40,311 nucleotides of DNA from a virus: UHGV virus genome UHGV-1329780, one strand, 5' to 3'. The notes under the pieces are model-generated. The model ran no database searches and was not told where the DNA came from. It saw nothing but the letters and a program-made list of their open reading frames with translations. This document shows positions 3,201-38,177 of the stretch, piece by piece. How positions within the stretch are numbered: the stretch's first letter is position 1; each line of letters opens with the position of its first letter. Made by a program: the position numbers and the translations under genes.

Positions 3201-5671
3201 CAGAACCCACCAACAGTAAGGCGAGGAATAACGGCAAGAACAGACAGCGGCAACGGATCAAGCTGACGGATTTTTACACGTCCGTTTTTGCCCCAGTTAC
3301 TGTCCAGTTTCACTTCTACTTTTCCGGTAGCATCATCAACAGGATCATCGTAGAACTCGAATTCACGCTGTGGATATTCGTACCATTTACCGCCGGGCGT
3401 AGTCGCCCAGATGCCGCGACTGGCATTCACAACCAGAGTAACGGACGGGATCACCTGTTTTTTGTCCAGCAGCGTTTCCTGTCCGTTAATGTTGATATCC
3501 AGTGTTTCGAATTCAGCAGTTATTGGCAGGCCGATGTGCACAACAGCCCCCGGTGATTCCAGCGTGACGGCACCTCCGGAAACCACTTTTTGTGGTTCCA
3601 CGTTCGCATCAGAGAGGATGTTTACGGTCTGGCCTTCAAGATGAGACAAGCCGCCAAATGTCCGGCGCGCCATCTGCCAGTTCGTGGTGGCCACATTCCT
3701 GAGGGATGGCGGGACGTTCCTGTTAGCACGAACCACTACTGCGGTATTGCTGGTTACAGAAATAATGTCGCAACGTAATTCTTTTGACACTTCATCGCCA
3801 GTATCAGGATCAGCTCCGGTATAAGGGAACTGTAGTTGCGCACCAACATCACTACTGGTGAAGTACGCACCACCAGAAACACTGATTGTATATTCCGCGT
3901 GGTAATCCCATTCACCAGAACCACCAGTGATGGTCATCGTTCTGTCAGACGTATTTCTTCCATCATAGCTAAGGCCAGAATCAACAAAGAAAGCATCTTC
4001 ATCGCTGGTAAATAAACGGCTGGACAGTCTCTCGATGTATCTCACTGTTTGCCCGTTAACGGTTCTGTTAACGACGAAATACACCGCATCTTCATTGCCT
4101 TCGCTGATACTGCATGTGCTTTCATATTTTCCGGTACTGGATTGTGGTGCCCATGCAAAAACCTGCTGATCACGCAAATAGGTCATCACCAGTAATTTAC
4201 CGTCATCACGAATGCAGAAGGCACTGGAGTAAGGGACAATCGAGAAGCACCAGTCAACAATGCTGTGCTTCTGAAAAAGATGATTGGCAAGGATAGTAAG
4301 GTCGTTCCCCTGATAGCCGTCAACATCGAATGAATAGGCCAGATCACGGACAACACTGCCTTTCTCCTGGACGAACAGAGCAATATTCGCCACGGCAATT
4401 GGTGGGACATTGCTCGAGCCATTTGATCCCTGAGAGCTGAATGCAAATGATGATGGGGTTAACACTTTGTTCTGGTCGCCGGTGATGACGTACTCACCTC
4501 CGGAAGTCAGCGCCACCAGAGAACCAACATCAATCAGGTGGCGGATCTCATTAACCTGACGCCCGGCATAGGTGTAGATAATTCTGTCGTCATCCTGCGT
4601 AGGATTGCTTTTGCCAAAATCCTTATAATCCCCGGTACGGCTGGCCCAGATAGTCTGAGGGAACGCAGTCGATGCGGCGAAGTAAAGACGCTGTTGATAA
4701 TAAACAACAGTGCCAGGATAACCATTAACACTGTTCCAGGCATATTTAGCCCATTTATAGCTGGCATTATCCTCGCCAACGACCTGCGAAGGGATATAGG
4801 AAATCACCTCAGCAGTTGCAGTAGTGCCATTTACAGCAGTTATACGGGCAATGCCAAAACCACTGTGCAGATACTCCCACTCAATACCAGTATCATCATC
4901 ACCGGAGCCGCCCCAGCCATCCCATGATGTGCCTTCTGTATGCGAAGGGCGCAAAGTGCCTGTTTTGCCTGCTGTAACGGCGCGATAGTAGTTACTGTCT
5001 GCACGGCGAATATCGCCAATCGACGTACTCTTACTGGTTTCCCATACCGGTACTGAATCCACTGCTGGCTGTTCCAGATAGAACAATTTGCCTACCTGCT
5101 CCGCGCCAAAAATAGAGGCGCTTGCCGTTAACGTAATTGTCCCGGTGCTGGCGCTGGCATAAACCGTCACTGACTCGTCAATATTGATATCTTCAAATGG
5201 CCCGTTCTTCGTTACCACATCAACCAGTTGCCAGTTGTCATGCGCATAGCGGCGCAACTCTTTCGGCGGGTATGCCGGATGAACCAGCGTAAGCACGTCT
5301 GCGCTTTGCGTGAATTTAATTCTGAACAGATCGGCTTCAGTATATGGCGTGGCAATTTCATAAATAACATTGCTGCTGTTCAGCACCAACGCACCATCTT
5401 TGATAACGCGCATGTACTGGTGTCCGAACTCCAGAGCATAAGTCTGAACCGTCGAGAACTGGAACGGGATCAGGCGGCATTTCCGATTTGGGTATTTGGC
5501 GGCACCGACAAAACGCGTACCAGGTCGATTCTCAACGCCGCCATACTGCCGCACGATAAAGTTATCGCACTTGCGCAATGCCACCTGGTACTTCGCCATG
5601 TCGATACGTCCGTACAACGACGGTCCAATCTCACCACCAGCAAAGCTGGGCTGGATCCAACTGATAGCCAT
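3200..5671 (-). CDS. Tail nozzle / tail tubular protein B-like protein
   Basis: 823 aa, directly downstream of the adaptor-like gene; size and position match the T7 gp12-class nozzle protein. Assignment is by synteny and size, not motif. Confidence 0.5.
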   Translation of the reverse strand: MAISWIQPSFAGGEIGPSLYGRIDMAKYQVALRKCDNFIVRQYGGVENRPGTRFVGAAKYPNRKCRLIPFQFSTVQTYALEFGHQYMRVIKDGALVLNSSNVIYEIATPYTEADLFRIKFTQSADVLTLVHPAYPPKELRRYAHDNWQLVDVVTKNGPFEDINIDESVTVYASASTGTITLTASASIFGAEQVGKLFYLEQPAVDSVPVWETSKSTSIGDIRRADSNYYRAVTAGKTGTLRPSHTEGTSWDGWGGSGDDDTGIEWEYLHSGFGIARITAVNGTTATAEVISYIPSQVVGEDNASYKWAKYAWNSVNGYPGTVVYYQQRLYFAASTAFPQTIWASRTGDYKDFGKSNPTQDDDRIIYTYAGRQVNEIRHLIDVGSLVALTSGGEYVITGDQNKVLTPSSFAFSSQGSNGSSNVPPIAVANIALFVQEKGSVVRDLAYSFDVDGYQGNDLTILANHLFQKHSIVDWCFSIVPYSSAFCIRDDGKLLVMTYLRDQQVFAWAPQSSTGKYESTCSISEGNEDAVYFVVNRTVNGQTVRYIERLSSRLFTSDEDAFFVDSGLSYDGRNTSDRTMTITGGSGEWDYHAEYTISVSGGAYFTSSDVGAQLQFPYTGADPDTGDEVSKELRCDIISVTSNTAVVVRANRNVPPSLRNVATTNWQMARRTFGGLSHLEGQTVNILSDANVEPQKVVSGGAVTLESPGAVVHIGLPITAEFETLDININGQETLLDKKQVIPSVTLVVNASRGIWATTPGGKWYEYPQREFEFYDDPVDDATGKVEVKLDSNWGKNGRVKIRQLDPLPLSVLAVIPRLTVGGF

Positions 5672-21207: not shown

Positions 21208-21438
21208 TCATGAGTAGAAGAAGTATGCCAGTTCTGCTTTTGAGCGCAGCCATTGTCTTGTTTTACAGGCTTTAAAAAGCCCATTCATCAATACTTTACC
21301 TGGCATTTTGCGCTTGCCTGTTAAGTGAGTCTGGATATAGTGACTCGTCGTTCCGGCTTCCTGTGCGAAGGCTTCACGCTCATCCGGAGTAAGTGCAAGC
21401 CAGTGCTTTTTGAAATCGAAATGTCCGTTATCGCTCAT
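21208..21438 (-). CDS. Cro/CII-like small HTH regulator
   Basis: 76 aa; helix-turn-helix-like segment; first gene leftward of the divergent operator region. Confidence 0.5.
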   Translation of the reverse strand: MSDNGHFDFKKHWLALTPDEREAFAQEAGTTSHYIQTHLTGKRKMPGKVLMNGLFKACKTRQWLRSKAELAYFFYS

Positions 21439-21592: not shown

Positions 21593-22177
21593 ATGAAAAG
21601 TATCCAGGACGTCCGCAGGCAAAATCTCAACGACTTGATCGACCGTGAATTCAATGGTGTTCAGACGCGGATGGCAGAAAAACTTGGAACTCAGGCAAAT
21701 CTGGTAAACCGCTGGGCTCTTGGCAAGAAGGTTATCGGCGACCAGGTTGCACGAAAAATTGAAGCTGCCGCCAATAAACCCCGTAACTGGCTTGATATTG
21801 ATCGTTCGCTTTCTCAGGAGGGTTTTCAGCCTGTCGGCCCGAGCGATATAGGTCAGCTGGCGGCTCACAACCTGGAACGCTGGATGAGCGAAAGCCGCGA
21901 CCTTTCAACACAGGGAAAACTTCACCGCGCATCCGGCGTCGCCCAGGTGACAATCAGCCGCCTGTTAAACAATGAGGTCAGCGTTTCCATTTCCACCCTG
22001 GAGAATGTTGCATCCGCATTCGGGCGTCACGGATATGAACTACTGATTCACCCGCACGACCCTGCGACTATCAACTATGACCGCTCACGCTACGCATTGT
22101 TACCCGAAACCGAGAAAGCAAAGATCGAAAGTTACATTGAATTTGTCATCAACCAGAACGAAAAAAGCAAACAATAA
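21593..22177 (+). CDS. CI-like prophage repressor with two HTH domains and no S24 peptidase domain
   Basis: 194 aa; HTH-like segments (MAEKLGTQANLVNRWALGK and ASGVAQVTISRLLNNEVSVSISTLENVASAFG); no Ser/Lys autocleavage module evident; divergent from the cro-like gene and followed by a strong terminator. Confidence 0.6.
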   Translation: MKSIQDVRRQNLNDLIDREFNGVQTRMAEKLGTQANLVNRWALGKKVIGDQVARKIEAAANKPRNWLDIDRSLSQEGFQPVGPSDIGQLAAHNLERWMSESRDLSTQGKLHRASGVAQVTISRLLNNEVSVSISTLENVASAFGRHGYELLIHPHDPATINYDRSRYALLPETEKAKIESYIEFVINQNEKSKQ

Positions 22178-29904: not shown

Positions 29905-29931
29905 CCCGCAAAATATTGCGGGCTTTTTTTT
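29905..29931 (+). terminator. Hairpin plus T8 tract at the tailspike 3' end (terminator-like on the plus strand)
   Basis: CCCGCAA-AATA-TTGCGGG followed by C and T8 on the plus strand, overlapping the tailspike stop codon region; preceded by an AT-rich 280-bp intergenic segment. Confidence 0.45.
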
Positions 29932-32900
29932 AACGTTCTTCCAGAGACTGAATCCGCTCTTTTATCTTATCCATTTCTCTGCGCTGCCATGCTGCCTCGA
30001 TATAGAATAAGAGATCAGGTCTGACCCCCCATCTAGATCCTGCTGGCGTTATTTCAACGCGCTCAATGATGTCTTCCATTACCATCACTGGATTATCATC
30101 CTCATCAACAATGATGCTCCCGTCATTATCAGTCAGCGGCATTTCCCTTTGGCCAGTAATGACATCATCATATACTGCGGGATAATCGTCATAGCAAAGA
30201 AAGGCATAGCGGCATGTTGTGCTTTCTTCTTCCATGAGTCCGTGAGAAATAAGAACATCACGAAGTTGCTGCGCGATTACACCATGATGTATCCTCGCCC
30301 CTTCTTCCCCCTTTATAGCGACAGCGTTCAGCCATTTATAAGCGATATACCTGACGTCACCCCAGGCATCCAGCAATGCTTCGTCAGGAGAGACCGGCTC
30401 TGTCTTTAATGTTCCGTCACTGGTAACCACAGGATTGGAGCCAAGATAAACTGTCGAGAACCTGTTTCCCGGACCACCAAGAGCATTTACATTATCAAGA
30501 TAAGGTTTAACATCTCCGTTCTCAAAAAGATGTTCGAGTGCGTTATATACCGCGCGACGTGGAGTACTGCTTCCGGAACCATGCAACGTTATCATTGCAC
30601 CATCTGCTGAAGACGTTGTTTCACCGCCGCTAACGATTAATCTCTGAGCGGTAACATCATCAGACGGTACTTTCTTCGCAATAATGGCGTAATTACCCTC
30701 AAGTTTGACTTCCGCGCGAACTTGTCCTGATGTACCTGCATGGACAGTCAGTGACTGGACGGCAACATCATCTGTGAAATCAACGGGTACAGGAACCGTC
30801 CTCACGCCTGACGTCGACATAAAAGTAGGAAGCGTTCTGTTAGGAGTGGCTCCGTAGACAAAATCCCTTGAAACAAATTCTTCCTGTTTAATTTTCACCC
30901 TGAAACAATACAAATCAGCCGGGTGACCATCGTGAACATAAGGATATTTTCTGTTGTTATCCCCTATGCTCCATGGGTTTAGAAAGTCTTCCCCACCGAA
31001 AATGTAGTACAGCCAGTTGTCTTTGATACAAACTGAACCAACACCAACCGCAGAGTTAACTATTCCGCCCTGATAAATCTGATCAGTAACATTAACCCAC
31101 TCTACATTATCCAGACTCCACTCATTGACGTTAACTCTGGTCATAAATGTTCTTGGATAATTTCCTGCATAACGGTTATCAGGTTCTCCTCCTTCCCACT
31201 CACCAAATGCGCGCTCACTGCCAAAAATAATCAGCTCATCGCCAACTTTGGCAAAAGGAAGGTTTGAGTGATGAACATTATTTGGGAAGCGAAGAGAATT
31301 CCATGATGTACCTAAATCAGAGCTTCTGTGCAATGAACTACCGGGTTGAGTACTTAATGTCCCCCTGGTCGTCAGATACAGAATGCCATCATAATATTTT
31401 ACACATGGCTCAGATGCATTCGCCTCATATTCTGCAGGTATGCGTCTGCGAACAAAGCTACCAGGAGAACCGAAAGCATCAGAGAAATAGAGTATCCCAA
31501 GCTCGCGTGGACCAATATCACCATTATGGTAGCCAACAGCAAAACTGTTATCGCTAATCGTCGCAAAACTGTGAATCTCAGTAACAGGAGTGCTTCCGTC
31601 AACAAAAGAAGGAATAGTTCCAAGACTGGTTTTTCTCCATGGTGACGAGTGAAATGATGTACCAAAACTCCAGTATCTACCCTCGTTATTCTGATCCACA
31701 TCCTGGGTATTTTGCGTCGTAACTGTAAAAGTATTTTTATCAATAACAGTAGTCACCGTCATATTCCCGGTAACACCTGTAACACCAGAGTTTGAGAAGT
31801 TGACAAAATCACCAGCAAATAATCCGTGATCAGTAATGCGAATATAAGCGACTTGCTGATTTGCTGCTTTCGTTATACCACCATAAACGCGAAGGCTGCG
31901 ACTCATTGGGCGATCCCACAACTCTGCAACCTGCAGTTTATTTCCGCTCACGGTCCGCGTCTCAATTACAGCAAAAAGGCGATTTCTGACAACCCCCATA
32001 CTCATGCAGTGATAGTTAACTGTGGGATAGTTTTCATGTAAATCTGTAAGCCATTCCGGCGTTGTCCAGGTCTTCCCGTCATCTCCTGAGCGAACCCATG
32101 CAACATGGAGGTTATTTACACCATGGCGGTCTCCAGCCATAAAAGGCGCATAGATGACATTGTCATATACAAACGTTTTATCCTGCGTCCAGGCGTTGTA
32201 CCACGGTGTATCTGTAATTTTAAATAACTCTCCCTGGATAAAATCTTCAGAAGCATAAAAAAGAGGCTGGCCCGGTATTCTCTCAAATAAAAAACGAGCA
32301 TTTTTAAATCGACTGACATCCGGAAGAGTTGATACTTTAAAAGTAAGCCCTAATCCGTCAATTTTATAACCTGGAGATGAGGCTTCAAGGCACGCGCTTA
32401 TTGCAGTGGAATCGTCATTTATACCATCACCAACAGCTCCAAAATCTTTGGGGCTAATAGCATCACGCATTTTATCCTGGAACGTTCGGTACACAGCCCC
32501 AGAACCATACTGAATAAACCAACCAAAACCACCAACAACCCCGGCGATTGCAGCATCGACATAATTACGCATTGAGCGATTATTTACAGCGTCCTGCTCA
32601 AATGATGGATCTGCAAGGTTAGAAATTTTGTTTTGCTTTGCATCGTAATATTTTGCAAGCAAAGATGGTTTCATCAATGCACGTCTGAACCACCCAAAAC
32701 ATTGCTGGATCAGCATCGTCAGGTAGTCAAAGGCATCTTCATGCACTTCGGGGAAAAATTTTCCCTGATTGCGAAGGTCTGTCTCCTGCACTACATCAAG
32801 CACACGATCTATCGTAATTCGCCATCCAGTAGCAAGCGGAGACGGAAGAACCACAGAACCGCCACTATAAGTGCCCGCCCCAGTTACCGTATAACCGGTA

Positions 32901-33049
32901 TCCAGAACCAATTCTGTTACGTTTCCGTTCAGGTCAGACACCTGAACAACCAGGTCTGATTTTCTGAAAATTCGAAAAGTATACGGAAACGATGTCGTAA
33001 CGCCGTTACCGGTGTATTCGTTGTGGTCAACTTCGGTTGAGACCGTCAT
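29930..33049 (-). CDS. Tailspike protein with Asp-box (sialidase-like) motifs and C-terminal intramolecular-chaperone-like domain
   Basis: 1039 aa; GGAG RBS; N-terminal particle-binding-type domain; DFGAVGDGINDDSTAI motif; Asp-box-like SGDDGKTW and SSDLGTSW; C-terminal segment with HHGVIAQQLRDVL resembling self-cleaving chaperone domains of endosialidase-type tailspikes. Confidence 0.7.
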   Translation of the reverse strand: MTVSTEVDHNEYTGNGVTTSFPYTFRIFRKSDLVVQVSDLNGNVTELVLDTGYTVTGAGTYSGGSVVLPSPLATGWRITIDRVLDVVQETDLRNQGKFFPEVHEDAFDYLTMLIQQCFGWFRRALMKPSLLAKYYDAKQNKISNLADPSFEQDAVNNRSMRNYVDAAIAGVVGGFGWFIQYGSGAVYRTFQDKMRDAISPKDFGAVGDGINDDSTAISACLEASSPGYKIDGLGLTFKVSTLPDVSRFKNARFLFERIPGQPLFYASEDFIQGELFKITDTPWYNAWTQDKTFVYDNVIYAPFMAGDRHGVNNLHVAWVRSGDDGKTWTTPEWLTDLHENYPTVNYHCMSMGVVRNRLFAVIETRTVSGNKLQVAELWDRPMSRSLRVYGGITKAANQQVAYIRITDHGLFAGDFVNFSNSGVTGVTGNMTVTTVIDKNTFTVTTQNTQDVDQNNEGRYWSFGTSFHSSPWRKTSLGTIPSFVDGSTPVTEIHSFATISDNSFAVGYHNGDIGPRELGILYFSDAFGSPGSFVRRRIPAEYEANASEPCVKYYDGILYLTTRGTLSTQPGSSLHRSSDLGTSWNSLRFPNNVHHSNLPFAKVGDELIIFGSERAFGEWEGGEPDNRYAGNYPRTFMTRVNVNEWSLDNVEWVNVTDQIYQGGIVNSAVGVGSVCIKDNWLYYIFGGEDFLNPWSIGDNNRKYPYVHDGHPADLYCFRVKIKQEEFVSRDFVYGATPNRTLPTFMSTSGVRTVPVPVDFTDDVAVQSLTVHAGTSGQVRAEVKLEGNYAIIAKKVPSDDVTAQRLIVSGGETTSSADGAMITLHGSGSSTPRRAVYNALEHLFENGDVKPYLDNVNALGGPGNRFSTVYLGSNPVVTSDGTLKTEPVSPDEALLDAWGDVRYIAYKWLNAVAIKGEEGARIHHGVIAQQLRDVLISHGLMEEESTTCRYAFLCYDDYPAVYDDVITGQREMPLTDNDGSIIVDEDDNPVMVMEDIIERVEITPAGSRWGVRPDLLFYIEAAWQRREMDKIKERIQSLEER

Positions 33050-33153
33050 GTTAAATCTCCAGATAGTCGCAGCACCCGTTGCGCCGCATATCTGGTTATT
33101 CTATTACCTGGAAAACCACATATGGATAGAAAGGCTGTAAATACGAATAGATA

Positions 33154-33168
33154 TTACCTTTCAGGTAA
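33154..33168 (+). promoter_or_regulatory. TTACC-N5-GGTAA dyad upstream of the LexA-controlled gene
   Basis: TTACCTTTCAGGTAA, identical to the dyad at 11468-11482. Confidence 0.5.
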
Positions 33169-33205
33169 TTTGCAAAACGTGCTGGATAGCAAACAAATTA
33201 TTTGA

Positions 33206-33225
33206 TACTGTATAAATATACAGTT
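33206..33225 (+). promoter_or_regulatory. LexA (SOS) box
   Basis: TACTGTATAAATATACAGTT: CTGT-N8-ACAG core at 33208-33223, 18/20 identical to the consensus TACTGTATATATATACAGTA; 20 bp upstream of ATG 33245. Confidence 0.8.
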
Positions 33226-33244
33226 ATTGCATGGAGAAGATAAG

Positions 33245-33502
33245 ATGCAGCAGTATCACTATCCACTGGAAGACGGATTTACCGAAAGGATTCACACGCC
33301 GGGAGGCGTCAGGTCACTGGTGGAGGGATCGCACTTGATGAAATTACTCCGGGATCTCGATAAGGATGGATTTAATGTCGATGGCCCACTTGCCGAACTG
33401 ACTGCACTGATTAACTACGTCACCAGCTCACAGATGTCTATGCGGGATCTGCAAACACATCTCGACTATTGTGCCGAACAATTACGAAAACAAACCAGAT
33501 AA
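33245..33502 (+). CDS. Small LexA-controlled protein homologous to the antirepressor C-terminal domain (candidate SOS-inducible antirepressor)
   Basis: 85 aa; GGAGAAG RBS; about 50 percent identical by eye over about 75 aa to the C-terminal region of the 33818-34528 product (IHTPGGV...LMKLL...DG.NVDGPLAELTAL..RDLQTH). Confidence 0.6.
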   Translation: MQQYHYPLEDGFTERIHTPGGVRSLVEGSHLMKLLRDLDKDGFNVDGPLAELTALINYVTSSQMSMRDLQTHLDYCAEQLRKQTR

Positions 33503-33533
33503 GGTTTGCAATTACCAAGTGGAGTGCTTATAT

Positions 33534-33548
33534 TTACCTTTGCGGTAA
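33534..33548 (+). promoter_or_regulatory. TTACC-N5-GGTAA dyad flanked by a 7-bp inverted repeat, upstream of a candidate promoter
   Basis: TTACCTTTGCGGTAA flanked by GGAGTGC/GCACTCC; followed by TTTACA (-35-like) and TAGTAAT (-10-like). Confidence 0.45.
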
Positions 33549-33639
33549 ATTTACATCGCACTCCTCTTGTGCCATAGTAATCGGGCACTGGCAAAATCCA
33601 GTGCCGGGATTGGCGTCCCGGGTTACTAAGTGGCGCATA

Positions 33640-33661
33640 CCACGCCAGACGTGGTTTTTTT
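33640..33661 (+). terminator. Intrinsic terminator/attenuator between the two antirepressor-like genes
   Basis: CCACG-CCAGA-CGTGG hairpin followed by T7; preceded by two further hairpins. Confidence 0.6.
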
Positions 33662-33817
33662 ATGCGTTAAGCACAGCTATATCCGAATTATGGTGGGCTG
33701 GGCAGGGGTCCGAAAGGACGCCGGTACCACTTAGGCCGGTACGCCAACCTTGTCCAGTTCACCACCAGTAATTGGCGTTGCGGTGGTGATTAAAATCACT
33801 AAGTGGAGATAACCACC

Positions 33818-34528
33818 ATGGCTAATGCTCAAACTTCCATCTTCAAATTTGAATCTGTTAACCCTATCCGTTCCATCATTATCGATGGCCAACCATGGTT
33901 TGTAGCCCAAGACGTTTGTAGTGCGCTGCGTATCCAAAACGTCACCCAAGCACTTGAAAAACTGGATGATGATGAAAGGTCTATGTTCAACATAGGGCAT
34001 GAACATCGTGCAATTTTTGACAGCCGAGTAAAAGAGATCAACATCATCTCCGAGTCAGGCCTCTACACACTGATCCTCCGCTGCCGCGACGCAGTGACAC
34101 CAGGCACTATCCCCTACCGCTTTCGTAAATGGGTTACGGGTGAGGTTCTTCCTCAGATCCGCCGCACCGGAAGCTACATTAAAAACTCGCTCCCGCAGGA
34201 AGAACGCATAAAGATGGTTGCCGACCAGGTAGCCAACGCCACGGCGTCAGCAGTAATGCAGGCGATGAAGATAGAGAACAAAACCTACAGCGCCCCACTG
34301 AAGCCCGGCTACCGCAGCCTGATTCATTCGCCGTCTGGTGTTCTCGGCCTGACGGAGAACTCACTGCTGATGAATCTGCTGAACCAGTTACAGGACGACG
34401 GGCACGACGTATCGGGCGCGGCGGCGGAGCTGACCACCATGTTCTGCTACATCGTCGGTGTGAGCAAATGCCTGCGTGATATCCAGACCCACGCGGAATA
34501 CATCAACGACAAGGCAGGGTTCTTCTGA
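33818..34528 (+). CDS. Bro-N domain antirepressor-like protein
   Basis: About 236 aa from ATG 33818 (GGAG RBS); N-terminal FKFESVNPIRSIIIDGQPWFVAQDVCSAL...ESGLYTLIL is a typical Bro-N pattern; C-terminal domain paralogous to the small protein at 33245-33502. Confidence 0.7.
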   Translation: MANAQTSIFKFESVNPIRSIIIDGQPWFVAQDVCSALRIQNVTQALEKLDDDERSMFNIGHEHRAIFDSRVKEINIISESGLYTLILRCRDAVTPGTIPYRFRKWVTGEVLPQIRRTGSYIKNSLPQEERIKMVADQVANATASAVMQAMKIENKTYSAPLKPGYRSLIHSPSGVLGLTENSLLMNLLNQLQDDGHDVSGAAAELTTMFCYIVGVSKCLRDIQTHAEYINDKAGFF

Positions 34529-34571
34529 CGGGCGGTGGCACAGGGATGTGCCTTTAAATAATTCTGTACAG

Positions 34572-34615
34572 ATTGCAGACTGTGGGTGAATAGCGTACTA
34601 TTACCTTAAAGGTAA
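34572..34615 (+). promoter_or_regulatory. Candidate promoter (TTGCAG-N17-TACTAT) with TTACC-N5-GGTAA dyad at the transcript start
   Basis: Dyad TTACCTTAAAGGTAA at 34601-34615 immediately upstream of an AGGAGG RBS and ATG 34628. Confidence 0.45.
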
Positions 34616-34627
34616 AGGAGGCGCGAT

Positions 34628-34795
34628 ATGACAGCGTTGAAAAATCGTACTCAGCACAATGAACAAGCCAAGCAATGCTGGGATGTCATTGGAAAAGTTA
34701 TGCTTGGCCGCGCAAGCAAAGAGCGCGACAAGGATATGGTTTACCAGACAGGAACATCTTTCAGCGACTTCAAGGCGGCATTTCGCTCCAAATAG
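34628..34795 (+). CDS. Small protein, first gene of a two-gene moron
   Basis: 55 aa (below the ORF-track cutoff); strong AGGAGG RBS at spacing 7; stop 20 nt before the next start. Confidence 0.45.
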   Translation: MTALKNRTQHNEQAKQCWDVIGKVMLGRASKERDKDMVYQTGTSFSDFKAAFRSK

Positions 34796-34815
34796 AAGCA
34801 CATCAGGAGTTTTCC

Positions 34816-35256
34816 TTGAAGTTTAACATTAGAATATCTAATAGTTTTCTACATGGGGAAAGCAACACCCCTTTCGCTGTAGACGGACCTTTCCTTACTG
34901 ATGATGAAATAAAAATCATACAAAGTTTTTTAGAGGATGTTGCCAATGGAAGGGCGCTTGTTGGAAAAAACAAGCCCTCGTGGGTTGATGATAACCATGA
35001 TAAAATTCCCGGCTCAGACAATTATGAGCAAGAGAATTATTGGCATTATCATTGTGGGCCAACATGGTATCCAAACACATTTAAGAATTATACCATTAAC
35101 TTAAATTTCAACCCTGGCGGAAGGCATTCTAATGAATGCATTCATTATGCAAAAAATGATAATGAAATTGTCATTGTTGGATTTTCAAGAGAACACATAC
35201 CTTTCCTTTCATCAGATGGAAACAACAATCCGCTTTTTAATGATGAAGAAGAATAG
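34816..35256 (+). CDS. AT-rich moron protein of unknown function (Asn/Asp-rich, acidic C-terminus)
   Basis: About 146 aa from TTG 34816 (AGGAG at spacing 6); AT-rich relative to flanking late genes; followed immediately by an intrinsic terminator; no family recognised by eye. Confidence 0.5.
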   Translation: MKFNIRISNSFLHGESNTPFAVDGPFLTDDEIKIIQSFLEDVANGRALVGKNKPSWVDDNHDKIPGSDNYEQENYWHYHCGPTWYPNTFKNYTINLNFNPGGRHSNECIHYAKNDNEIVIVGFSREHIPFLSSDGNNNPLFNDEEE

Positions 35257-35276
35257 CCCGCGCTGCGGGCTTTTTT
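35256..35276 (+). terminator. Intrinsic terminator after the moron
   Basis: GCCCGC-GCT-GCGGGC hairpin followed by TTTTTT. Confidence 0.75.
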
Positions 35277-35348
35277 GTGGACGAAACAAAAGTCAGTGCT
35301 ACACTCATTGACGCCACATTGAGGTGGCTTATAGATGGAAATTTCACA

Positions 35349-35510
35349 ATGAAAAAAGCATTTGCTGCACTGTTCGTTTTGTTGTCTCTGGTAGCTTCAA
35401 CTCAGGCCTTTGCCGGTCGTTGTCAGCACGACAGCGACACTGCTGCTGACGGCTCCCGCTGCGGTGGGCGTTCTGCGGACTCCCGTCCGGGCGGCGGTGG
35501 CATTCGTTAA
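35349..35510 (+). CDS. Candidate small secreted peptide
   Basis: 53 aa; N-terminal signal-peptide-like MKKAFAALFVLLSLVASTQAFA then a Gly/Arg/Asp-rich segment with two Cys; weak RBS, so the call is tentative. Confidence 0.3.
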   Translation: MKKAFAALFVLLSLVASTQAFAGRCQHDSDTAADGSRCGGRSADSRPGGGGIR

Positions 35511-35552
35511 AAACAAGGCCGCGAAAGCGGCCTGTGACATGTCACGCTCACG

Positions 35553-35693
35553 TTATGACAAGCCTATGTACCCTGCTACACCAGATAATATCATAATAAC
35601 TGCAACAGCAAATTCGCCATCGTCAATGATACATTTACGGTTCATAACGCCAAGTGCAACAAGCGCAAACACAACAAGAATAAAAGCAATCAT
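35553..35693 (-). CDS. Candidate small hydrophobic membrane protein
   Basis: 46 aa (MIAFILVVFALVALGVMNRKCIIDDGEFAVAVIMILSGVAGYIGLS), two hydrophobic segments; ATG 9 nt downstream of the stop of the 824-aa gene; below the ORF-track cutoff. Confidence 0.3.
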   Translation of the reverse strand: MIAFILVVFALVALGVMNRKCIIDDGEFAVAVIMILSGVAGYIGLS

Positions 35694-35702
35694 TTCTCAT
35701 CC

Positions 35703-38177
35703 TTATTGCGGAGTGACATCCTGTGGTCGCCACCAGTATGTCTGGTTAAACTCTTTCTTCGAACGTTGCTCCATTTTACGCAAATAACCTGGTGAAAAAT
35801 ACTCCTGCATCTGGTTAAAGATCATGTGATCGAGAGCCGCCTTCAAGTACCAGAGATTCGCACCTGGCATCAGACCTTTCCCCAGCTTAACCAGATCACC
35901 ACCAGTCTGCTCACTCTTCCCTTCCACAGCATTTAACGGTATGCCCTGAGCAATCTTCACTACGTCATCAACCAGACCAGCTACCGGGCCAAGCATCGAC
36001 GCCAGCGCGCCGCTTCCGTACCTAGTGTGATCTGACAATAAAAAGTCACCGTAAAGGCCAAGACCACCACCTTTCAGTAGAGCACCAAGCCAAAATTTAG
36101 CAGCATCTTCTCCTGTCATCTCGCGAGGATTACGACCAGACGCAAGGTCGTTAAGTTGCTGCGACAAAGCGCCAAGAATGGTCGTACTGGCAATAAACGT
36201 CGCAATATATGCCGCACGCCCACCAGCAGACGGCATACCCATAGCGCGTGACCAGTGACGCATAACCACCGAGATAGGGAACGATTTAAACAGGAAAACA
36301 CTTCTCGTTAATTCACCTTTCCATGTTCCACGCTGAATACCAGAACCGGTTATCAGTTGCTCACGTGCTCCCGGTGTAATAACAGCCATATCAACTTCTT
36401 CAGTTACGGCACCGAGCAGTTTACGCATTGCCTCAAATTTCACGCGTTCAGGCTCACCAAGATGTTTAACTGCTGAATCAGGGATACGCATAATGCTTTC
36501 CGGTGTCAGCATCGTATTATTACCGTTCCCCCAGTCCTCCTGTTTCGCCAGCTTCCATACGCTCCAGTCTGTGTCAGTAATCCCTTTGCTTTTCAGGATA
36601 CGAAAATCAGAGTCATCGAGGCTACGAAGGTCTGGTGTACGTGACACTACTTCTCCCAGGCTTCCCATCATGGTTACGCCATAGGCGCGCTTGTGCGCAT
36701 CTGACCATGCTGTAAGCCCACTGGCACGCATTACCGCCGTTGCCGCCCAACGAGACACTGACGGCCCCATATTATCCATCGCCCAGCGGTTAACGCTGCC
36801 AAGTAGAGATTCCATCGCCAGACCAGCGCGGCGCGCCCGCGCAAGTTCTGTACGGTTCGTTGGGTCCATAGCTTCAAGCTGGTTGCGGAATAACTGGTTC
36901 ATTGGAAGGTTGGTAACCTTCGCAGACAGATACATGGTTCCAAGATCAGAGAACGATGACAGCAACGCGGATCCGAGTCTGCTGGCAACCAGCCAGTTGC
37001 GGATATTGTCAGACCATCGCGCGATGTGCGGATTCGCTACAGGCTGTGTCTTTCCGGAAATAAAGTTGTACAGATTCTCTGTGTTGTTCGCCAGCCGCTC
37101 GACTTTACCGGTTTTACTCGGGTTAGCTGTTGCCGTTTCTGCCTTCACCTGATCAAGAAGAGAGCGGAAAACATGATCGGGGTTTGGGCCATATGTTTCC
37201 ACCAGTGCAATATCTTTACTGATACCTTCCAGGTGACCGACCATGATTTCCCATAGAGAGCGATCGCCATAAAGTTGCTGATATTGCAGATAGGAATCTG
37301 CATCTTTGAAATGTATCTGTCGTGATGCATTACCACGGTTAGCACGTGCGCCGGAAATTCGCATTCCGGTATCAGTAAGCTTATTCAGCCCACCAGTAGC
37401 GATCGTGTTATAAGCCTCTCCAAGAAATGAAGACAACTCGGCATCGTTCATCAGTTGTCCATCGGCTCGGATATAATATTTGCGATCCAGCTTACCTATA
37501 ACATCGCTAACCCACTTATCCTTTGATACTGCCCCAACCTTTTCCATAGAATGATGTTGAGGGATCCCCCAGTTTTCGAGATAGCCAATGTCCCCACCAG
37601 CATCATTAAACCGGCGGCGCAGCAGCTCTGTAACTTCTCTCCACGCCTTAGCACCGTTTCTTGCTTTAGCATTGCCAGTATTTTGCCCCCGCATTTCATA
37701 TACCAGGTCACGTACGCCCGCTTCATCTTCAAACAGACCAAAAAAGCGAGGATCAACTGCTTCGAATGCCTCCTGCAATTGACTCAATGCATAATCACGG
37801 GTGGCTTTTGTTCTGGATTCAACAGAGAGGAAATTAGATTTACCGTCTGCATTAAAAGCTATAGTACGGTTAAGAGCGCCAAGTTTCCCATCAGCCCCTT
37901 GATAGCTATTGATAAATTTATCCAATCTCTGACGCGCGGCTATAGTGAGAGCCACACGACGTTTCTTTAATGCCGCTTCTCGCTGTAATTCTTCAGATGC
38001 CAATTGTGCTGCTCGATATAGCCGCTCTGATTCGGAAAGTTGTCTCCACGACATCGGGTCATCACGAGCAATGGAGCGCATATTTCGATAAATGCGGTCT
38101 TCAATGTTCTGTATTTCTCGCGCCGTTAACGTGCGCTGCGCCGCCTGCTGGACCGCTTGTATACATTCCTGTCTCAT
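35703..38177 (-). CDS. Large internal virion (ejection/core) protein
   Basis: 824 aa; last large gene of the core module, coupled to the upstream 600-aa gene; identity assigned by size and position. Confidence 0.5.
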   Translation of the reverse strand: MRQECIQAVQQAAQRTLTAREIQNIEDRIYRNMRSIARDDPMSWRQLSESERLYRAAQLASEELQREAALKKRRVALTIAARQRLDKFINSYQGADGKLGALNRTIAFNADGKSNFLSVESRTKATRDYALSQLQEAFEAVDPRFFGLFEDEAGVRDLVYEMRGQNTGNAKARNGAKAWREVTELLRRRFNDAGGDIGYLENWGIPQHHSMEKVGAVSKDKWVSDVIGKLDRKYYIRADGQLMNDAELSSFLGEAYNTIATGGLNKLTDTGMRISGARANRGNASRQIHFKDADSYLQYQQLYGDRSLWEIMVGHLEGISKDIALVETYGPNPDHVFRSLLDQVKAETATANPSKTGKVERLANNTENLYNFISGKTQPVANPHIARWSDNIRNWLVASRLGSALLSSFSDLGTMYLSAKVTNLPMNQLFRNQLEAMDPTNRTELARARRAGLAMESLLGSVNRWAMDNMGPSVSRWAATAVMRASGLTAWSDAHKRAYGVTMMGSLGEVVSRTPDLRSLDDSDFRILKSKGITDTDWSVWKLAKQEDWGNGNNTMLTPESIMRIPDSAVKHLGEPERVKFEAMRKLLGAVTEEVDMAVITPGAREQLITGSGIQRGTWKGELTRSVFLFKSFPISVVMRHWSRAMGMPSAGGRAAYIATFIASTTILGALSQQLNDLASGRNPREMTGEDAAKFWLGALLKGGGLGLYGDFLLSDHTRYGSGALASMLGPVAGLVDDVVKIAQGIPLNAVEGKSEQTGGDLVKLGKGLMPGANLWYLKAALDHMIFNQMQEYFSPGYLRKMEQRSKKEFNQTYWWRPQDVTPQ

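What the first reader, a model, noticed from the sequence alone, without database searches (positions are those of the whole stretch)
34572..35276. Self-contained two-gene moron (55-aa and 146-aa proteins) in the gap between core and tailspike genes
The unit has its own promoter with a dyad at the transcript start, a strong RBS, two tightly spaced genes, and a clean intrinsic terminator, and it runs opposite to the flanking late genes. The second gene is markedly AT-rich, suggesting horizontal acquisition. The small-then-larger gene arrangement resembles toxin-antitoxin or compact defence/anti-defence pairs. Neither protein shows a motif I can assign.
Basis: partly seen in the sequence, partly recalled or inferred. 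Interest (0 to 1): 0.55.

Follow-up and report, generated by a model that had tools for sequence, protein, structure and literature searches.

The report
Prophage toxin–antitoxin-like pair, RelE-fold toxin
The two small genes are real and look like a toxin–antitoxin pair whose larger protein has the fold of RelE-type RNA-cutting toxins but belongs to a family no database names; the pair sits in a swappable cargo slot of an E. coli prophage, behind a promoter that carries the phage repressor's likely binding site.

Summary
The + strand carries a 55-aa gene (34628-34795) and a 146-aa gene (TTG start, 34816-35256). Both have strong ribosome-binding sites, and a clean terminator follows (35255-35277). 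Both flanking genes run on the − strand, and gene 2 is AT-rich (GC 0.356 against 0.488 for the window).

In sister prophages the same slot holds a small gene plus a Pfam-recognised YafO-family toxin. The two genes co-occur in 77 of 77 E. coli genomes that carry either. Every relative examined has a small gene just upstream on the same strand. Contexts include a Rep3 plasmid, RnlAB and a type I restriction gene.

The unit is not self-contained. The promoter, dyad and terminator belong to the phage backbone and are shared by five different cargos. The dyad is one of 14 copies of a phage-wide TTACC-N5-GGTAA motif, which also marks the repressor/cro region.

Verdict: a probable type II toxin–antitoxin module from a new RelE-superfamily family.

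The parts
34537..34552 (+). Short hairpin (GGCACA-GGGA-TGTGCC) just after the stop of the Bro-N anti-repressor gene, followed by a weak T/A run. It may be a leaky terminator separating ant from the cassette.
   Evidence: -9.9 kcal/mol, z -1.4. It was not picked by the terminator scan.
34573..34601 (+). Candidate sigma-70 promoter TTGCAG-17 nt-TACTAT. It is a backbone feature of the cargo slot.
   Evidence: Read from the sequence. It matches 7 of 12 consensus positions, below the scan threshold. It is conserved base for base upstream of five different cargos. It has the same geometry as the promoters at 33506-33534 and 22297.
34601..34615 (.). Perfect palindrome TTACCTT-A-AAGGTAA overlapping the -10 hexamer and predicted start site. 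It is one of 14 TTACC-N5-GGTAA sites in the window and the likely operator of the phage immunity repressor.
   Evidence: 14 sites against 0.67 expected; arms invariant, centre variable across cargos. Folded as RNA it is weak (-5.2 kcal/mol, z -0.34).
34617..35232 (+). The exchangeable cargo segment. This stretch is replaced by other gene sets in sister prophages.
   Evidence: In blastn against TL-2011b, homology ends at 34616 and resumes at 35233. The leader occurs in 435 E. coli genomes but the cassette in only 77.
34628..34795 (+). Gene 1, 55 aa (GGAGG ribosome-binding site at 34617-34621). It is the putative antitoxin or partner: a small helical protein with no recognisable DNA-binding domain.
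   Evidence: phrog_8607, unknown function; all-helical, pLDDT 71; C-terminal motif.
34816..35256 (+). Gene 2, 146 aa, TTG start (AGGAG ribosome-binding site at 34805-34809). It is a RelE/ParE-fold putative endoribonuclease toxin. Motifs are GKNKPSW (residues 50-56), WHYH (76-79), IHY (109-111) and S..H.PF (124-130).
   Evidence: (phrog_5954).
35255..35277 (+). Intrinsic terminator: a 7-bp G+C-rich stem, 3-nt loop and T6. The stem overlaps the gene 2 stop codon. It is shared with other cargos of the slot.
   Evidence: -14.6 kcal/mol; homology with TL-2011b from 35233 onward.

Best explanation
The two genes form a type II toxin-antitoxin-like module carried as exchangeable cargo by an epsilon15/phiV10-like (Uetakevirus) E. 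coli prophage.

- **Gene 2 (146 aa)** is a RelE/ParE-superfamily (BECR-fold) protein from a family that no curated database names. Its invariant H77, H79 and H127, with near-invariant Y111 and F130, sit on the central strands and the C-terminal segment. RelE, YoeB and YafQ-type toxins carry their catalytic residues in the same places. Its most likely activity is therefore translation-linked cleavage of mRNA, as shown for YafO. This step is inferred.
- **Gene 1 (55 aa)** is the cognate neutralising partner. It probably binds the toxin through its C-terminal approximately 17 residues. This step is also inferred.
- **Transcription** starts at a backbone promoter (TTGCAG-17-TACTAT) whose -10 hexamer and start site are overlapped by a copy of the phage-wide palindrome TTACC-N5-GGTAA. 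The same palindrome occupies the repressor/cro intergenic region. Expression is therefore probably gated by the phage immunity repressor rather than by the antitoxin. Transcription ends at a shared intrinsic terminator.

What the module does for the phage cannot be decided from sequence. The candidates are prophage retention, abortive-infection defence, or a role during induction.

For: **Conservation.** A profile search found 118 representative proteins at the 50% identity level. In an alignment of 95 of them, H77, H79 and H127 are invariant. G50, N52, K53, S55, Y78, Y111 and F130 are at least 90% conserved.

**YafO link.** hhalign between the family profile and a YafO profile scores 19.9 (P 0.016). 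None of 129 column shuffles reached that score (mean 11.1, max 17.9). The extended alignment places H77/H79 on YafO H60/H62, Y111 on Y88 and H127 on H109. YafO is a RelE-superfamily toxin that depends on translation to cleave mRNA (PMC2814082; PMC11980606).

**Allelic slot.** In TL-2011b, KOr019 and an O102:H6 strain, exactly this segment is replaced by a small gene plus a toxin. The TL-2011b and KOr019 toxins pass the Pfam PF13957 (YafO) gathering score (26.3 and 26.1 bits against 25). The O102:H6 toxin falls below it (19.7 bits) and is named YafO-family only by RefSeq.

**Linkage.** Gene 1 and gene 2 each occur in 77 of 5426 complete E. coli genomes, at 80 places each, and never alone by these counts. 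The pair is also kept in Enterobacter and Erwinia.

**Upstream partner.** Of the 19 genome loci, the 18 that encode a true family member all have an upstream same-strand gene, as do the 5 further relatives whose upstream region could be read. The nineteenth locus (L021) has only a 73-residue match at 29% identity to an unrelated ORF and was set aside. The spacing runs from about -35 to +55 nt.

**Contexts of relatives.** These include a Rep3 mini-plasmid, a position next to RnlA-RnlB, a position next to a type I restriction subunit, and the nin region of lambdoid prophages.

**Partner motif.** A 20-column profile was built only from the C-termini of unrelated partners (Pasteurellaceae, Neisseriaceae, Klebsiella). 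It scores gene 1 residues 37-53 at 11.1 bits. That is the best of 730 window ORFs, and none of 3000 shuffles reached it.

**Regulation.** See, and PMC9782041.
Against: - No toxicity, neutralisation or RNA cleavage was tested.
- No member of the family hits any of the 13 Pfam BECR toxin families, including YafO.
- HMM-to-sequence scores against YafO proteins are negligible.
- The hhalign probability is only 2.8%.
- Foldseek E-values are not significant; the best is 0.23.
- Gene 1 has no detectable DNA-binding domain and only a low-confidence helical model. It is therefore not a classical autoregulating antitoxin.
- I anchored the C-terminal motif by eye. It fails on gene 1's own Erwinia homologue (1.2 bits), on the Aeromonas partner and on four independently sampled distant partners.
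- A complex model could not be made.
- If the repressor really shuts the promoter in lysogens, an addiction or defence role in the resting prophage becomes harder to explain.
Confidence: 0.6

Rival explanations
1. The pair serves the lytic or induction programme rather than acting as a toxin-antitoxin module in the resting lysogen. Under this reading the immunity repressor keeps the pair silent. It is switched on together with the neighbouring anti-repressor at induction or on infection. It might then damp host translation, act against competing phages, or let gene 1 neutralise a host toxin.
For: The promoter carries the same TTACC-N5-GGTAA palindrome, in the same position relative to the -10 hexamer, as the promoter of the c4/ant module at 33506-33548. 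The palindrome also lies in the repressor/cro intergenic region. The promoter and operator are fixed while the cargo varies. The repressor homologue blocks the lytic cycle when overexpressed, and the Bro-N protein promotes it (PMC9782041).
Against: Binding of the repressor to these sites has not been shown. Operator occupancy could be partial. The contexts of relatives (plasmid, RnlAB, restriction genes, nin region) fit ordinary toxin-antitoxin or defence cargo. A toxin with a co-expressed inhibitor has no obvious use in a lytic programme.
Confidence: 0.2
2. Gene 2 has the RelE/ParE fold but is not an RNase. It could be a ParE-like gyrase poison, or a domesticated non-toxic RNA- or ribosome-binding protein.
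Confidence: 0.12
3. The two ORFs are unrelated neighbours. Gene 1 would be an independent small protein, not a partner of gene 2.
For: Gene 1 homologues detectable by sequence are few and close, 80-98% identical. Distant relatives of gene 2 have upstream genes from other families.
Against: The counts match exactly, at 77 genomes and 80 places each. The pair is conserved in Enterobacter and Erwinia. A tightly coupled upstream gene is present at every examined locus that encodes a true family member. Exchange of antitoxin families is usual for type II modules; that point is my own knowledge.
Confidence: 0.06
4. The ORFs arise by chance or are decaying remnants with no function.
For: None beyond the lack of annotation.
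Against: Protein-level conservation extends to Pasteurellaceae, Neisseriaceae and Aeromonas, with invariant motifs. The structure prediction is confident. PGAP calls the CDSs intact in the rows inspected. Both genes have strong ribosome-binding sites.
Confidence: 0.02

Closest known systems
YafN-YafO type II toxin-antitoxin system (Pfam PF13957 YafO_toxin)
   Same: The gene order is small gene then toxin. The toxin is predicted to have the RelE-superfamily fold. The conserved motifs are colinear: G-(R/K)-(D/N), H-x-H, then (T/S)S...(H)xY, then a hydrophobic strand followed by x-x-H. The invariant histidines align. YafO-family cassettes occupy the very same slot in sister prophages.
   Different: No member reaches the Pfam model, even at a permissive E-value. 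The profile-profile score is weak (P 0.016). The protein is longer in the loop between the second and third core strands. The partner is a 55-aa helical protein with no Pfam or other family match, so nothing relates it to YafN.
RelE, YoeB, YafQ and HigB ribosome-dependent mRNA endonuclease toxins (RelE/ParE or BECR superfamily)
   Different: At 146 aa it is about 50% larger than these toxins. There is no sequence-level match to any of the 13 Pfam families listed in PMC11980606. The partner has no recognisable RHH, HTH or Phd DNA-binding domain.
PaaR2-PaaA2-ParE2, a prophage toxin-antitoxin module with a short helical antitoxin and a separate transcriptional regulator
   Same: It has a short, largely helical antitoxin without a DNA-binding domain (compare). 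Transcription control is delegated to another protein, here presumably the phage repressor. It is carried on a prophage. This comparison rests on my own knowledge of that system.
   Different: There is no dedicated third gene in the cassette. The toxin here keeps RNase-type histidines, unlike ParE2. The resemblance was not tested.
Phage morons and cargo hotspots, as in lambdoid phages and the P2/P4 defence hotspots
   Same: Presence varies among close relatives: phiV10 lacks 34540-35487. Composition is atypical. The unit lies between a promoter and a terminator and faces against the late genes. The slot carries different cargos in different prophages.
   Different: The promoter and terminator are fixed backbone rather than imported with the gene. 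The promoter carries an immunity-operator-like site, so constitutive expression from the prophage is not expected.

Membership tests
RelE/ParE (BECR-fold) toxin superfamily | The RelE-type alpha/beta fold: N-terminal helices packed on an antiparallel sheet. | tested here: met
RelE/ParE (BECR-fold) toxin superfamily | Sequence membership in one of the 13 Pfam monodomain toxin families (RelE, ParE, HigB, HigB-like, YoeB, YafQ, YafO, YhaV, MqsR, BrnT, gp49, DUF4258, ParE-like). | tested here: not met
   There is no such hit for the protein, for 29 close relatives at E up to 10, or for 95 diverse relatives at E up to 0.1. The family list comes from PMC11980606.
RelE/ParE (BECR-fold) toxin superfamily | Conserved catalytic-type residues on the sheet and C-terminal segment (RNase branch). 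| tested here: inconclusive
   H77, H79 and H127 are invariant, and Y111 and F130 are at least 90% conserved. They lie on strands 75-79 and 108-113 and just after strand 117-124. No 3-D superposition on a known active site could be made.
RelE/ParE (BECR-fold) toxin superfamily | Growth arrest through mRNA cleavage or gyrase poisoning. | not testable with these tools
   This needs expression and biochemical assays.
YafO family (PF13957) | A match to the Pfam or NCBIfam YafO model at its gathering score. | tested here: not met
   Searches gave no hit. For comparison, the slot-mates in TL-2011b and KOr019 reach 26.3 and 26.1 bits against a cut-off of 25.
YafO family (PF13957) | Profile-level homology to YafO, with invariant residues aligned. 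| tested here: inconclusive
   The hhalign score is 19.9, with P 0.016 and probability 2.8%. None of 129 column shuffles reached it. H77/H79, Y111 and H127 align to YafO H60/H62, Y88 and H109 only in the extended low-confidence realignment.
YafO family (PF13957) | A YafN-type (Phd/YefM-fold) antitoxin upstream. | tested here: not met
   Gene 1 has no Pfam or NCBIfam match. It is predicted to be all-helical.
Type II toxin-antitoxin module | Two adjacent co-oriented genes, tightly spaced, that are inherited together. | tested here: met
   The gap is 20 nt. The counts are 77 genomes and 80 places for each gene. The pair is kept in Enterobacter and Erwinia. An upstream partner is present at every examined locus that encodes a true family member.
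Type II toxin-antitoxin module | An antitoxin with a DNA-binding domain that autoregulates the operon through its own operator. | tested here: not met
   No DNA-binding domain was found in gene 1. The only dyad at the promoter is shared by unrelated cargos and by 13 other sites in the phage.
Type II toxin-antitoxin module | The toxin is toxic, and the antitoxin binds and neutralises it. | not testable with these tools
No experiment was possible.
Phage moron | Present in some close relatives and absent in others, with atypical base composition. | tested here: met
   phiV10 lacks 34540-35487. The cassette is in 77 genomes and the slot in 435. GC is 0.356 against 0.488, in the lowest 0.3% of windows.
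Phage moron | Brings its own promoter and terminator, so that it is an autonomous unit. | tested here: not met
   The promoter, operator and terminator are conserved around five different cargos. The homology break points are 34616/34617 and 35232/35233.
Phage moron | Expressed from the repressed prophage. | not testable with these tools
   An operator-like site overlaps the -10 hexamer and start site, which argues against it. No expression data are available.
Known anti-phage defence systems (PADLOC-DB) | A match to a model of a known or candidate defence protein. | tested here: not met
   Neither protein matched at E up to 1.

The most novel reading that the evidence does not exclude
The phage keeps a fixed 'expression port', consisting of a promoter, an immunity-repressor operator and a terminator, directly downstream of its c4/anti-repressor switch. 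Interchangeable RelE-fold toxin pairs (this family or YafO-type) are plugged into that port. The toxin module would then be silent in the lysogen and released only when immunity collapses. It would act as part of the induction decision or as a weapon at the moment of induction or infection, not as a classical addiction or standing defence module. The membrane-anchored long partners of the same toxin family in Pasteurellaceae prophages would be a second, unexplained variation on this theme.
Probability: 0.15. Interest if true: 0.65.

Novelty: new member of a known kind. Interest (0 to 1): 0.4.

Why it matters
If confirmed, this would add a RelE/ParE-fold toxin family that none of the 13 Pfam families covers. 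The family has about 118 clusters at 50% identity. It occurs in prophages and plasmids of Enterobacterales, Pasteurellaceae, Neisseriaceae and Aeromonas, and in about 1.4% of complete E. coli genomes, including bloodstream isolates.

It would also give a function to two PHROG families of unknown function (8607 and 5954). It would help annotation pipelines that currently call both genes hypothetical.

The slot itself may matter more. A conserved promoter-operator-terminator port next to the anti-repressor switch carries alternative toxin cassettes. This offers a defined natural system for asking whether prophage toxin-antitoxin cargo is controlled by phage immunity, and what such cargo does at induction.

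Tried and rejected
- **Sequence-family scans.** Pfam, NCBIfam and PADLOC gave nothing for either protein. PHROGs gave only unknown-function families. Scanning 29 and then 95 relatives individually against Pfam gave only scattered chance hits. A profile search against PDB sequences also gave only chance hits.
- **Direct comparison with YafO proteins.** BLASTP and hhalign of the family against single YafO-type sequences gave no signal. HMM-to-sequence scores against YafO proteins were negligible.
- **Structure libraries.** The AlphaFold-database libraries were not available. The viral structure library gave nothing significant. Foldseek against the PDB was not significant by E-value.
- **Frameshifted gene 1 variants (P0042, P0044-P0046).** I looked at these as a test of whether the toxin survives without its partner. 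The contigs carry scattered single-base deletions inside and outside genes, typical of error-prone assemblies, so they are uninformative.
- **Partner C-terminal profiles.** A 39-column profile did not single out gene 1 (rank 5 of 730, E 3.6). The anchored 20-column version did. It failed on the Erwinia homologue, the Aeromonas and Enterobacter adelaidei partners, the TL-2011b 59-aa protein and four independently sampled distant partners. I therefore treat the motif as suggestive only.
- **The dyad as an RNA hairpin.** It is weak (-5.2 kcal/mol, z -0.34), so I read it as a DNA site.
- **Literature.** Searches found no paper describing this family or this slot.
Full report
**What the window is.** The stretch 33000-36000 is 98% identical to Escherichia phage HEMP4 and phiv142-3. 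It is related to phiV10, TL-2011b and Salmonella epsilon15-like phages of the genus Uetakevirus. An identical copy of the cassette lies in a prophage of the E. coli blood isolate MS20653, next to an endosialidase tailspike.

**The observation.** The sequence contains the two ORFs as described. One is 34628-34795 (+, ATG, 55 aa). The other is 34816-35256 (+, TTG, 146 aa). NCBI's pipeline calls the same two CDSs with the same TTG start, both as hypothetical proteins. Homologues of gene 2 start at the same aligned residue.

GGAGG lies 6 nt before the ATG and AGGAG lies 6 nt before the TTG. The genes are 20 nt apart. A 7-bp G+C-rich stem with a T6 tail follows at 35255-35277 and folds at -14.6 kcal/mol. 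Both large neighbours are on the − strand. Gene 2 has GC 0.356 and GC3 0.306 against 0.488 for the window, which is in the lowest 0.3% of equally sized windows. The dyad is a perfect 7+7 palindrome at 34601-34615.

The proposed promoter, TTGCAG-17-TACTAT, matches only 7 of 12 consensus positions and was not reported by the consensus scan. Its reality rests on conservation, described below.

**What gene 2 is.** Sequence libraries give nothing: Pfam, NCBIfam and PADLOC have no match, and PHROGs gives only the unknown-function family phrog_5954. The word-indexed search found 34 clusters, all hypothetical, in Enterobacterales and Pasteurellaceae. A genome scan added Aeromonas, Kingella and Neisseria. 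An exhaustive profile search found 118 representatives at the 50% level.

In an alignment of 95 of these, H77, H79 and H127 are invariant. G50, N52, K53, S55, Y78, Y111 and F130 are at least 90% conserved. None of the 95 hits any Pfam toxin family, and the profile finds no solved structure by sequence.

I therefore take the fold assignment as well supported. The conserved histidines lie on strands 75-79 and 108-113 and just after strand 117-124. From my own knowledge of RelE, YoeB and YafQ structures, those are the positions of their catalytic residues. I could not superpose coordinates, so this step is inferred.

**Relation to YafO.** By eye the family shares an ordered set of motifs with E. 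coli YafO:

| This family | YafO |
|---|---|
| GKNKPSW..DD | FGRDALYDD |
| WHYH | AHIH |
| TS..IHY | TSD.AHLVY |
| IVGFS..H | LIAILKP.PH |

A profile-profile comparison reproduces the first half of this alignment, with score 19.9, P 0.016 and probability only 2.8%. With relaxed realignment it extends colinearly. H77/H79 then fall on YafO H60/H62, Y111 on Y88 and H127 on H109. A null from 129 column-shuffled YafO alignments gave mean 11.1, sd 2.1 and maximum 17.9, so none reached 19.9. The reversed alignment gave 14.2. HMM-to-sequence scores are negligible.

This is a weak but consistent link. The protein is not a member of PF13957, but YafO is the nearest named family. YafO belongs to the RelE superfamily and cleaves only translated mRNA (PMC2814082). 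A recent review lists it among the 13 Pfam BECR-fold toxin families (PMC11980606).

**The slot.** Comparison with TL-2011b shows homology up to 34616 and again from 35233. Only 34617-35232 is replaced. In TL-2011b the replacement is a 59-aa gene overlapping a 181-aa toxin that passes the Pfam YafO gathering score. phiV10 lacks everything from 34540 to 35487.

Among 5426 complete E. coli genomes, the first approximately 77 nt of the leader occur in 435 but the cassette occurs in only 77. Sampling the others showed several different cargos:

| Strain | Cargo in the slot |
|---|---|
| KOr019 | the TL-2011b type (59-aa gene plus 181-aa YafO-family toxin) |
| O102:H6 | 108-aa gene overlapping a 170-aa toxin that RefSeq names YafO-family; its Pfam score is below the gathering score (19.7 against 25 bits) |
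| AHB12 | two small membrane proteins |
| CE10 | a single 210-aa protein |

In all five cargo types the sequence AATTCTGTACAGATTGCAGACTG.GGGTGAATAG.GTACTATTACC.....GGTAAA is conserved, and similarity stops right after it. The arms of the palindrome are invariant, while its central five bases vary (TTAAA, TCAAG, CCAAA).

The promoter, the dyad and the terminator are therefore fixed parts of the phage, and coding cassettes are exchanged between them. The right-hand junction lies inside the last 24 nt of gene 2. This is why gene 2 and the TL-2011b toxin end in similar tails.

**The dyad is a phage-wide site.** TTACC-N5-GGTAA occurs 14 times in the window at one mismatch or fewer, against 0.67 expected, and none of 100 shuffles reached 14. 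The sites are intergenic. At least two, and by eye a third, lie between a divergent 76-aa gene (21208-21438, −) and a 194-aa helix-turn-helix protein (21593-22177, +). That protein is 99.5% identical to the putative repressor of phiV10. According to PMC9782041, the phiV10 repressor has the same sequence as the ZX5 repressor, which blocks the lytic cycle when overexpressed.

Three sites share one geometry: a -35 hexamer, 17 nt, then a -10 hexamer whose last base is the first base of the palindrome.

| Palindrome start | -35 hexamer | -10 hexamer |
|---|---|---|
| 22297 | TTGACA | AATTAT |
| 33534 | TTGCAA | TATATT |
| 34601 | TTGCAG | TACTAT |

The 33534 promoter was found independently by the scan. 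It heads a module that Rfam recognises as isrK (67.7 bits), C4 antisense RNA (66 bits) and its a1/b1 targets, followed by the Bro-N anti-repressor gene. This layout resembles the P1 immI region; that comparison is my own knowledge.

I infer that the palindrome is the operator of the immunity repressor, and that the cassette's promoter is under its control. Binding has not been shown.

**What gene 1 is.** It has no family match except phrog_8607. Detectable homologues are close, at 80-98% identity, plus a diverged one upstream of the Erwinia toxin homologue. The AlphaFold model is one long helix plus a short one, at low confidence (pLDDT 71). No DNA-binding fold is evident.

- **Linkage.** Gene 1 and gene 2 are each found in 77 genomes and 80 places. 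In Enterobacter sp. NFR05 they carry consecutive locus tags.
- **Upstream gene in relatives.** One search returned 19 genome loci. Eighteen encode a true family member, and all of these have an upstream same-strand gene abutting or overlapping the toxin gene. The nineteenth (L021, Pyrinomonadaceae) has only a 73-residue match at 29% identity (E 2e-4) to an unrelated ORF and was set aside. Five further relatives whose upstream region could be read show the same arrangement.
- **Diverse partner families.** In Pasteurellaceae and Neisseriaceae prophages the upstream genes encode 160-210-aa proteins with a hydrophobic N-terminal segment. In Klebsiella lambdoid prophages the partner is 102 aa. Elsewhere the partners are 60 to 106 aa.
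- **Shared C-terminus.** Several of these partners end in a similar short strand-turn-helix sequence, for example ...GYSFNAEHSFEDFRNAMRG, ...FVFDETHSRDDIRRMLFGDS and ...FIVDPSMSVDDILKAIGG, compared with gene 1 ...MVYQTGTSFSDFKAAFRSK.
- **Statistical test of the motif.** A 20-column profile built only from the other partners scores gene 1 at 11.1 bits on residues 37-53. That is the best of 730 window ORFs (the next scores 4.0), and none of 3000 shuffles reached it.
- **Caveats.** I chose the register by eye. A broader 39-column profile was not significant. The anchored profile fails on the Erwinia homologue, the Aeromonas partner and four distant partners sampled afterwards.

The motif is therefore a lead for a toxin-binding segment, not a finding.

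**Contexts of relatives.** These fit toxin-antitoxin cargo. One pair sits on a roughly 2-kb contig with a Rep3 replication gene. One is next to RnlA-RnlB. One is next to a type I restriction subunit. Others lie in the nin region of Klebsiella lambdoid prophages, and between the tape-measure and baseplate genes of Pasteurellaceae prophages.

**Most likely mechanism.** Gene 2 encodes a RelE/YafO-like endoribonuclease that arrests translation, and gene 1 encodes its inhibitor. Both are transcribed from a repressor-gated backbone promoter and stop at the shared terminator.

- Shown: the genes, their signals, the fold, the conservation, the linkage, the slot structure and the over-representation of the palindrome.
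- Inferred: RNase activity, neutralisation, repressor binding and the biological role.

The main rival concerns the role, not the chemistry. If the operator keeps the promoter shut in lysogens, the pair would act at induction or infection rather than as a standing addiction or defence module.

**Novelty.** This is a new family-level member of a well-known kind: type II toxin-antitoxin modules with RelE/ParE-fold toxins. I found no paper on it. The fixed, operator-bearing cargo port next to the anti-repressor switch is the more unusual aspect, and it is untested.

**What failed.** The AlphaFold-database libraries were unavailable. The frameshifted gene 1 variants came from error-prone assemblies and said nothing.

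Noticed in passing
window 11468, 12085, 14987, 15005, 19174, 19236, 21475, 21523, 22235, 22297, 27551, 33154, 33534, 34601 (each 15 nt): The palindrome TTACC-N5-GGTAA occurs 14 times at one mismatch or fewer, against 0.67 expected. All sites are intergenic and often paired 48-62 bp apart. Two or three lie between the divergent cro-like and repressor genes. It is very likely the immunity operator of this phage group. I found no paper that defines it.
   Followed up: partly
window 33572-33769 (+): Rfam finds isrK (33585-33661, 67.7 bits), C4 antisense RNA (33686-33769, 66 bits) and the a1/b1 targets (33572-33624, 44.1 bits, just under the gathering score). These lie directly upstream of the Bro-N anti-repressor gene (33803-34528). 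The arrangement is a P1 immI-like antisense-controlled ant module in a Uetakevirus.
   Followed up: no
L025 2136-2768; L026 2291-2836; L027 2119-2944; L028 2103-2625; L002 3991-4690: The same slot carries other cargos in other E. coli prophages. There are two kinds of YafO-family toxin pairs (59+181 aa and 108+170 aa), a pair of small membrane proteins (62+110 aa), and a single 210-aa protein of unknown function.
   Followed up: partly
window 35349-35510 (+): A 53-aa protein with a signal-peptide-like N-terminus and a Gly/Arg/Asp-rich tail (WP_000708858.1; phrog_14503 'membrane associated protein', moron category). It is conserved downstream of the slot whatever the cargo, and it is absent from phiV10.
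   Followed up: no
window 33227-33502 (+) and 33803-34528 (+): The 91-aa ORF upstream of the c4 module matches the same PHROG families (phrog_450, phrog_15539) as the C-terminal third of the Bro-N anti-repressor. It looks like a free-standing copy of the Ant C-terminal domain.
   Followed up: no
L004-L016 (about 3415-3999) and L018/L019: In Pasteurellaceae and Neisseriaceae the gene upstream of the toxin homologue encodes a 160-210-aa helical protein with a hydrophobic N-terminal segment that resembles a signal peptide or membrane anchor. The pair sits between the tape-measure and baseplate-V genes of P2/Mu-like prophages. A membrane-anchored antitoxin would be unusual.
   Followed up: partly
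L036 218-1889; L039 365-2564; L040 1-2756: Distant relatives of the pair lie on a roughly 2-kb contig with a Rep3 replication gene, immediately after an RnlA-RnlB module, and immediately after a type I restriction R subunit.
   Followed up: no
window 35233-35256 and L002 4664-4690: The right-hand recombination junction of the cargo lies inside the coding sequence. The last approximately 24 nt of gene 2 and of the TL-2011b YafO-family toxin are the same DNA, so two otherwise unrelated proteins share a C-terminal tail (...LF.D...E*).
   Followed up: no
window 29930-33049 (−): The tailspike is an endosialidase-type protein, annotated in RefSeq as an endosialidase catalytic beta-propeller domain protein in MS20653, CE10 and AHB12. 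This suggests a K1-capsule-specific Uetakevirus found in bloodstream and meningitis isolates.
   Followed up: no
window 21593-22177 (+): The repressor has its HTH_3 domain in the C-terminal half (residues 106-147) and a second weak Cro/YdaS-like match at residues 21-61. No other Pfam family, peptidase families included, was reported at E up to 0.001. This is consistent with induction through an anti-repressor rather than self-cleavage (PMC9782041).
   Followed up: no
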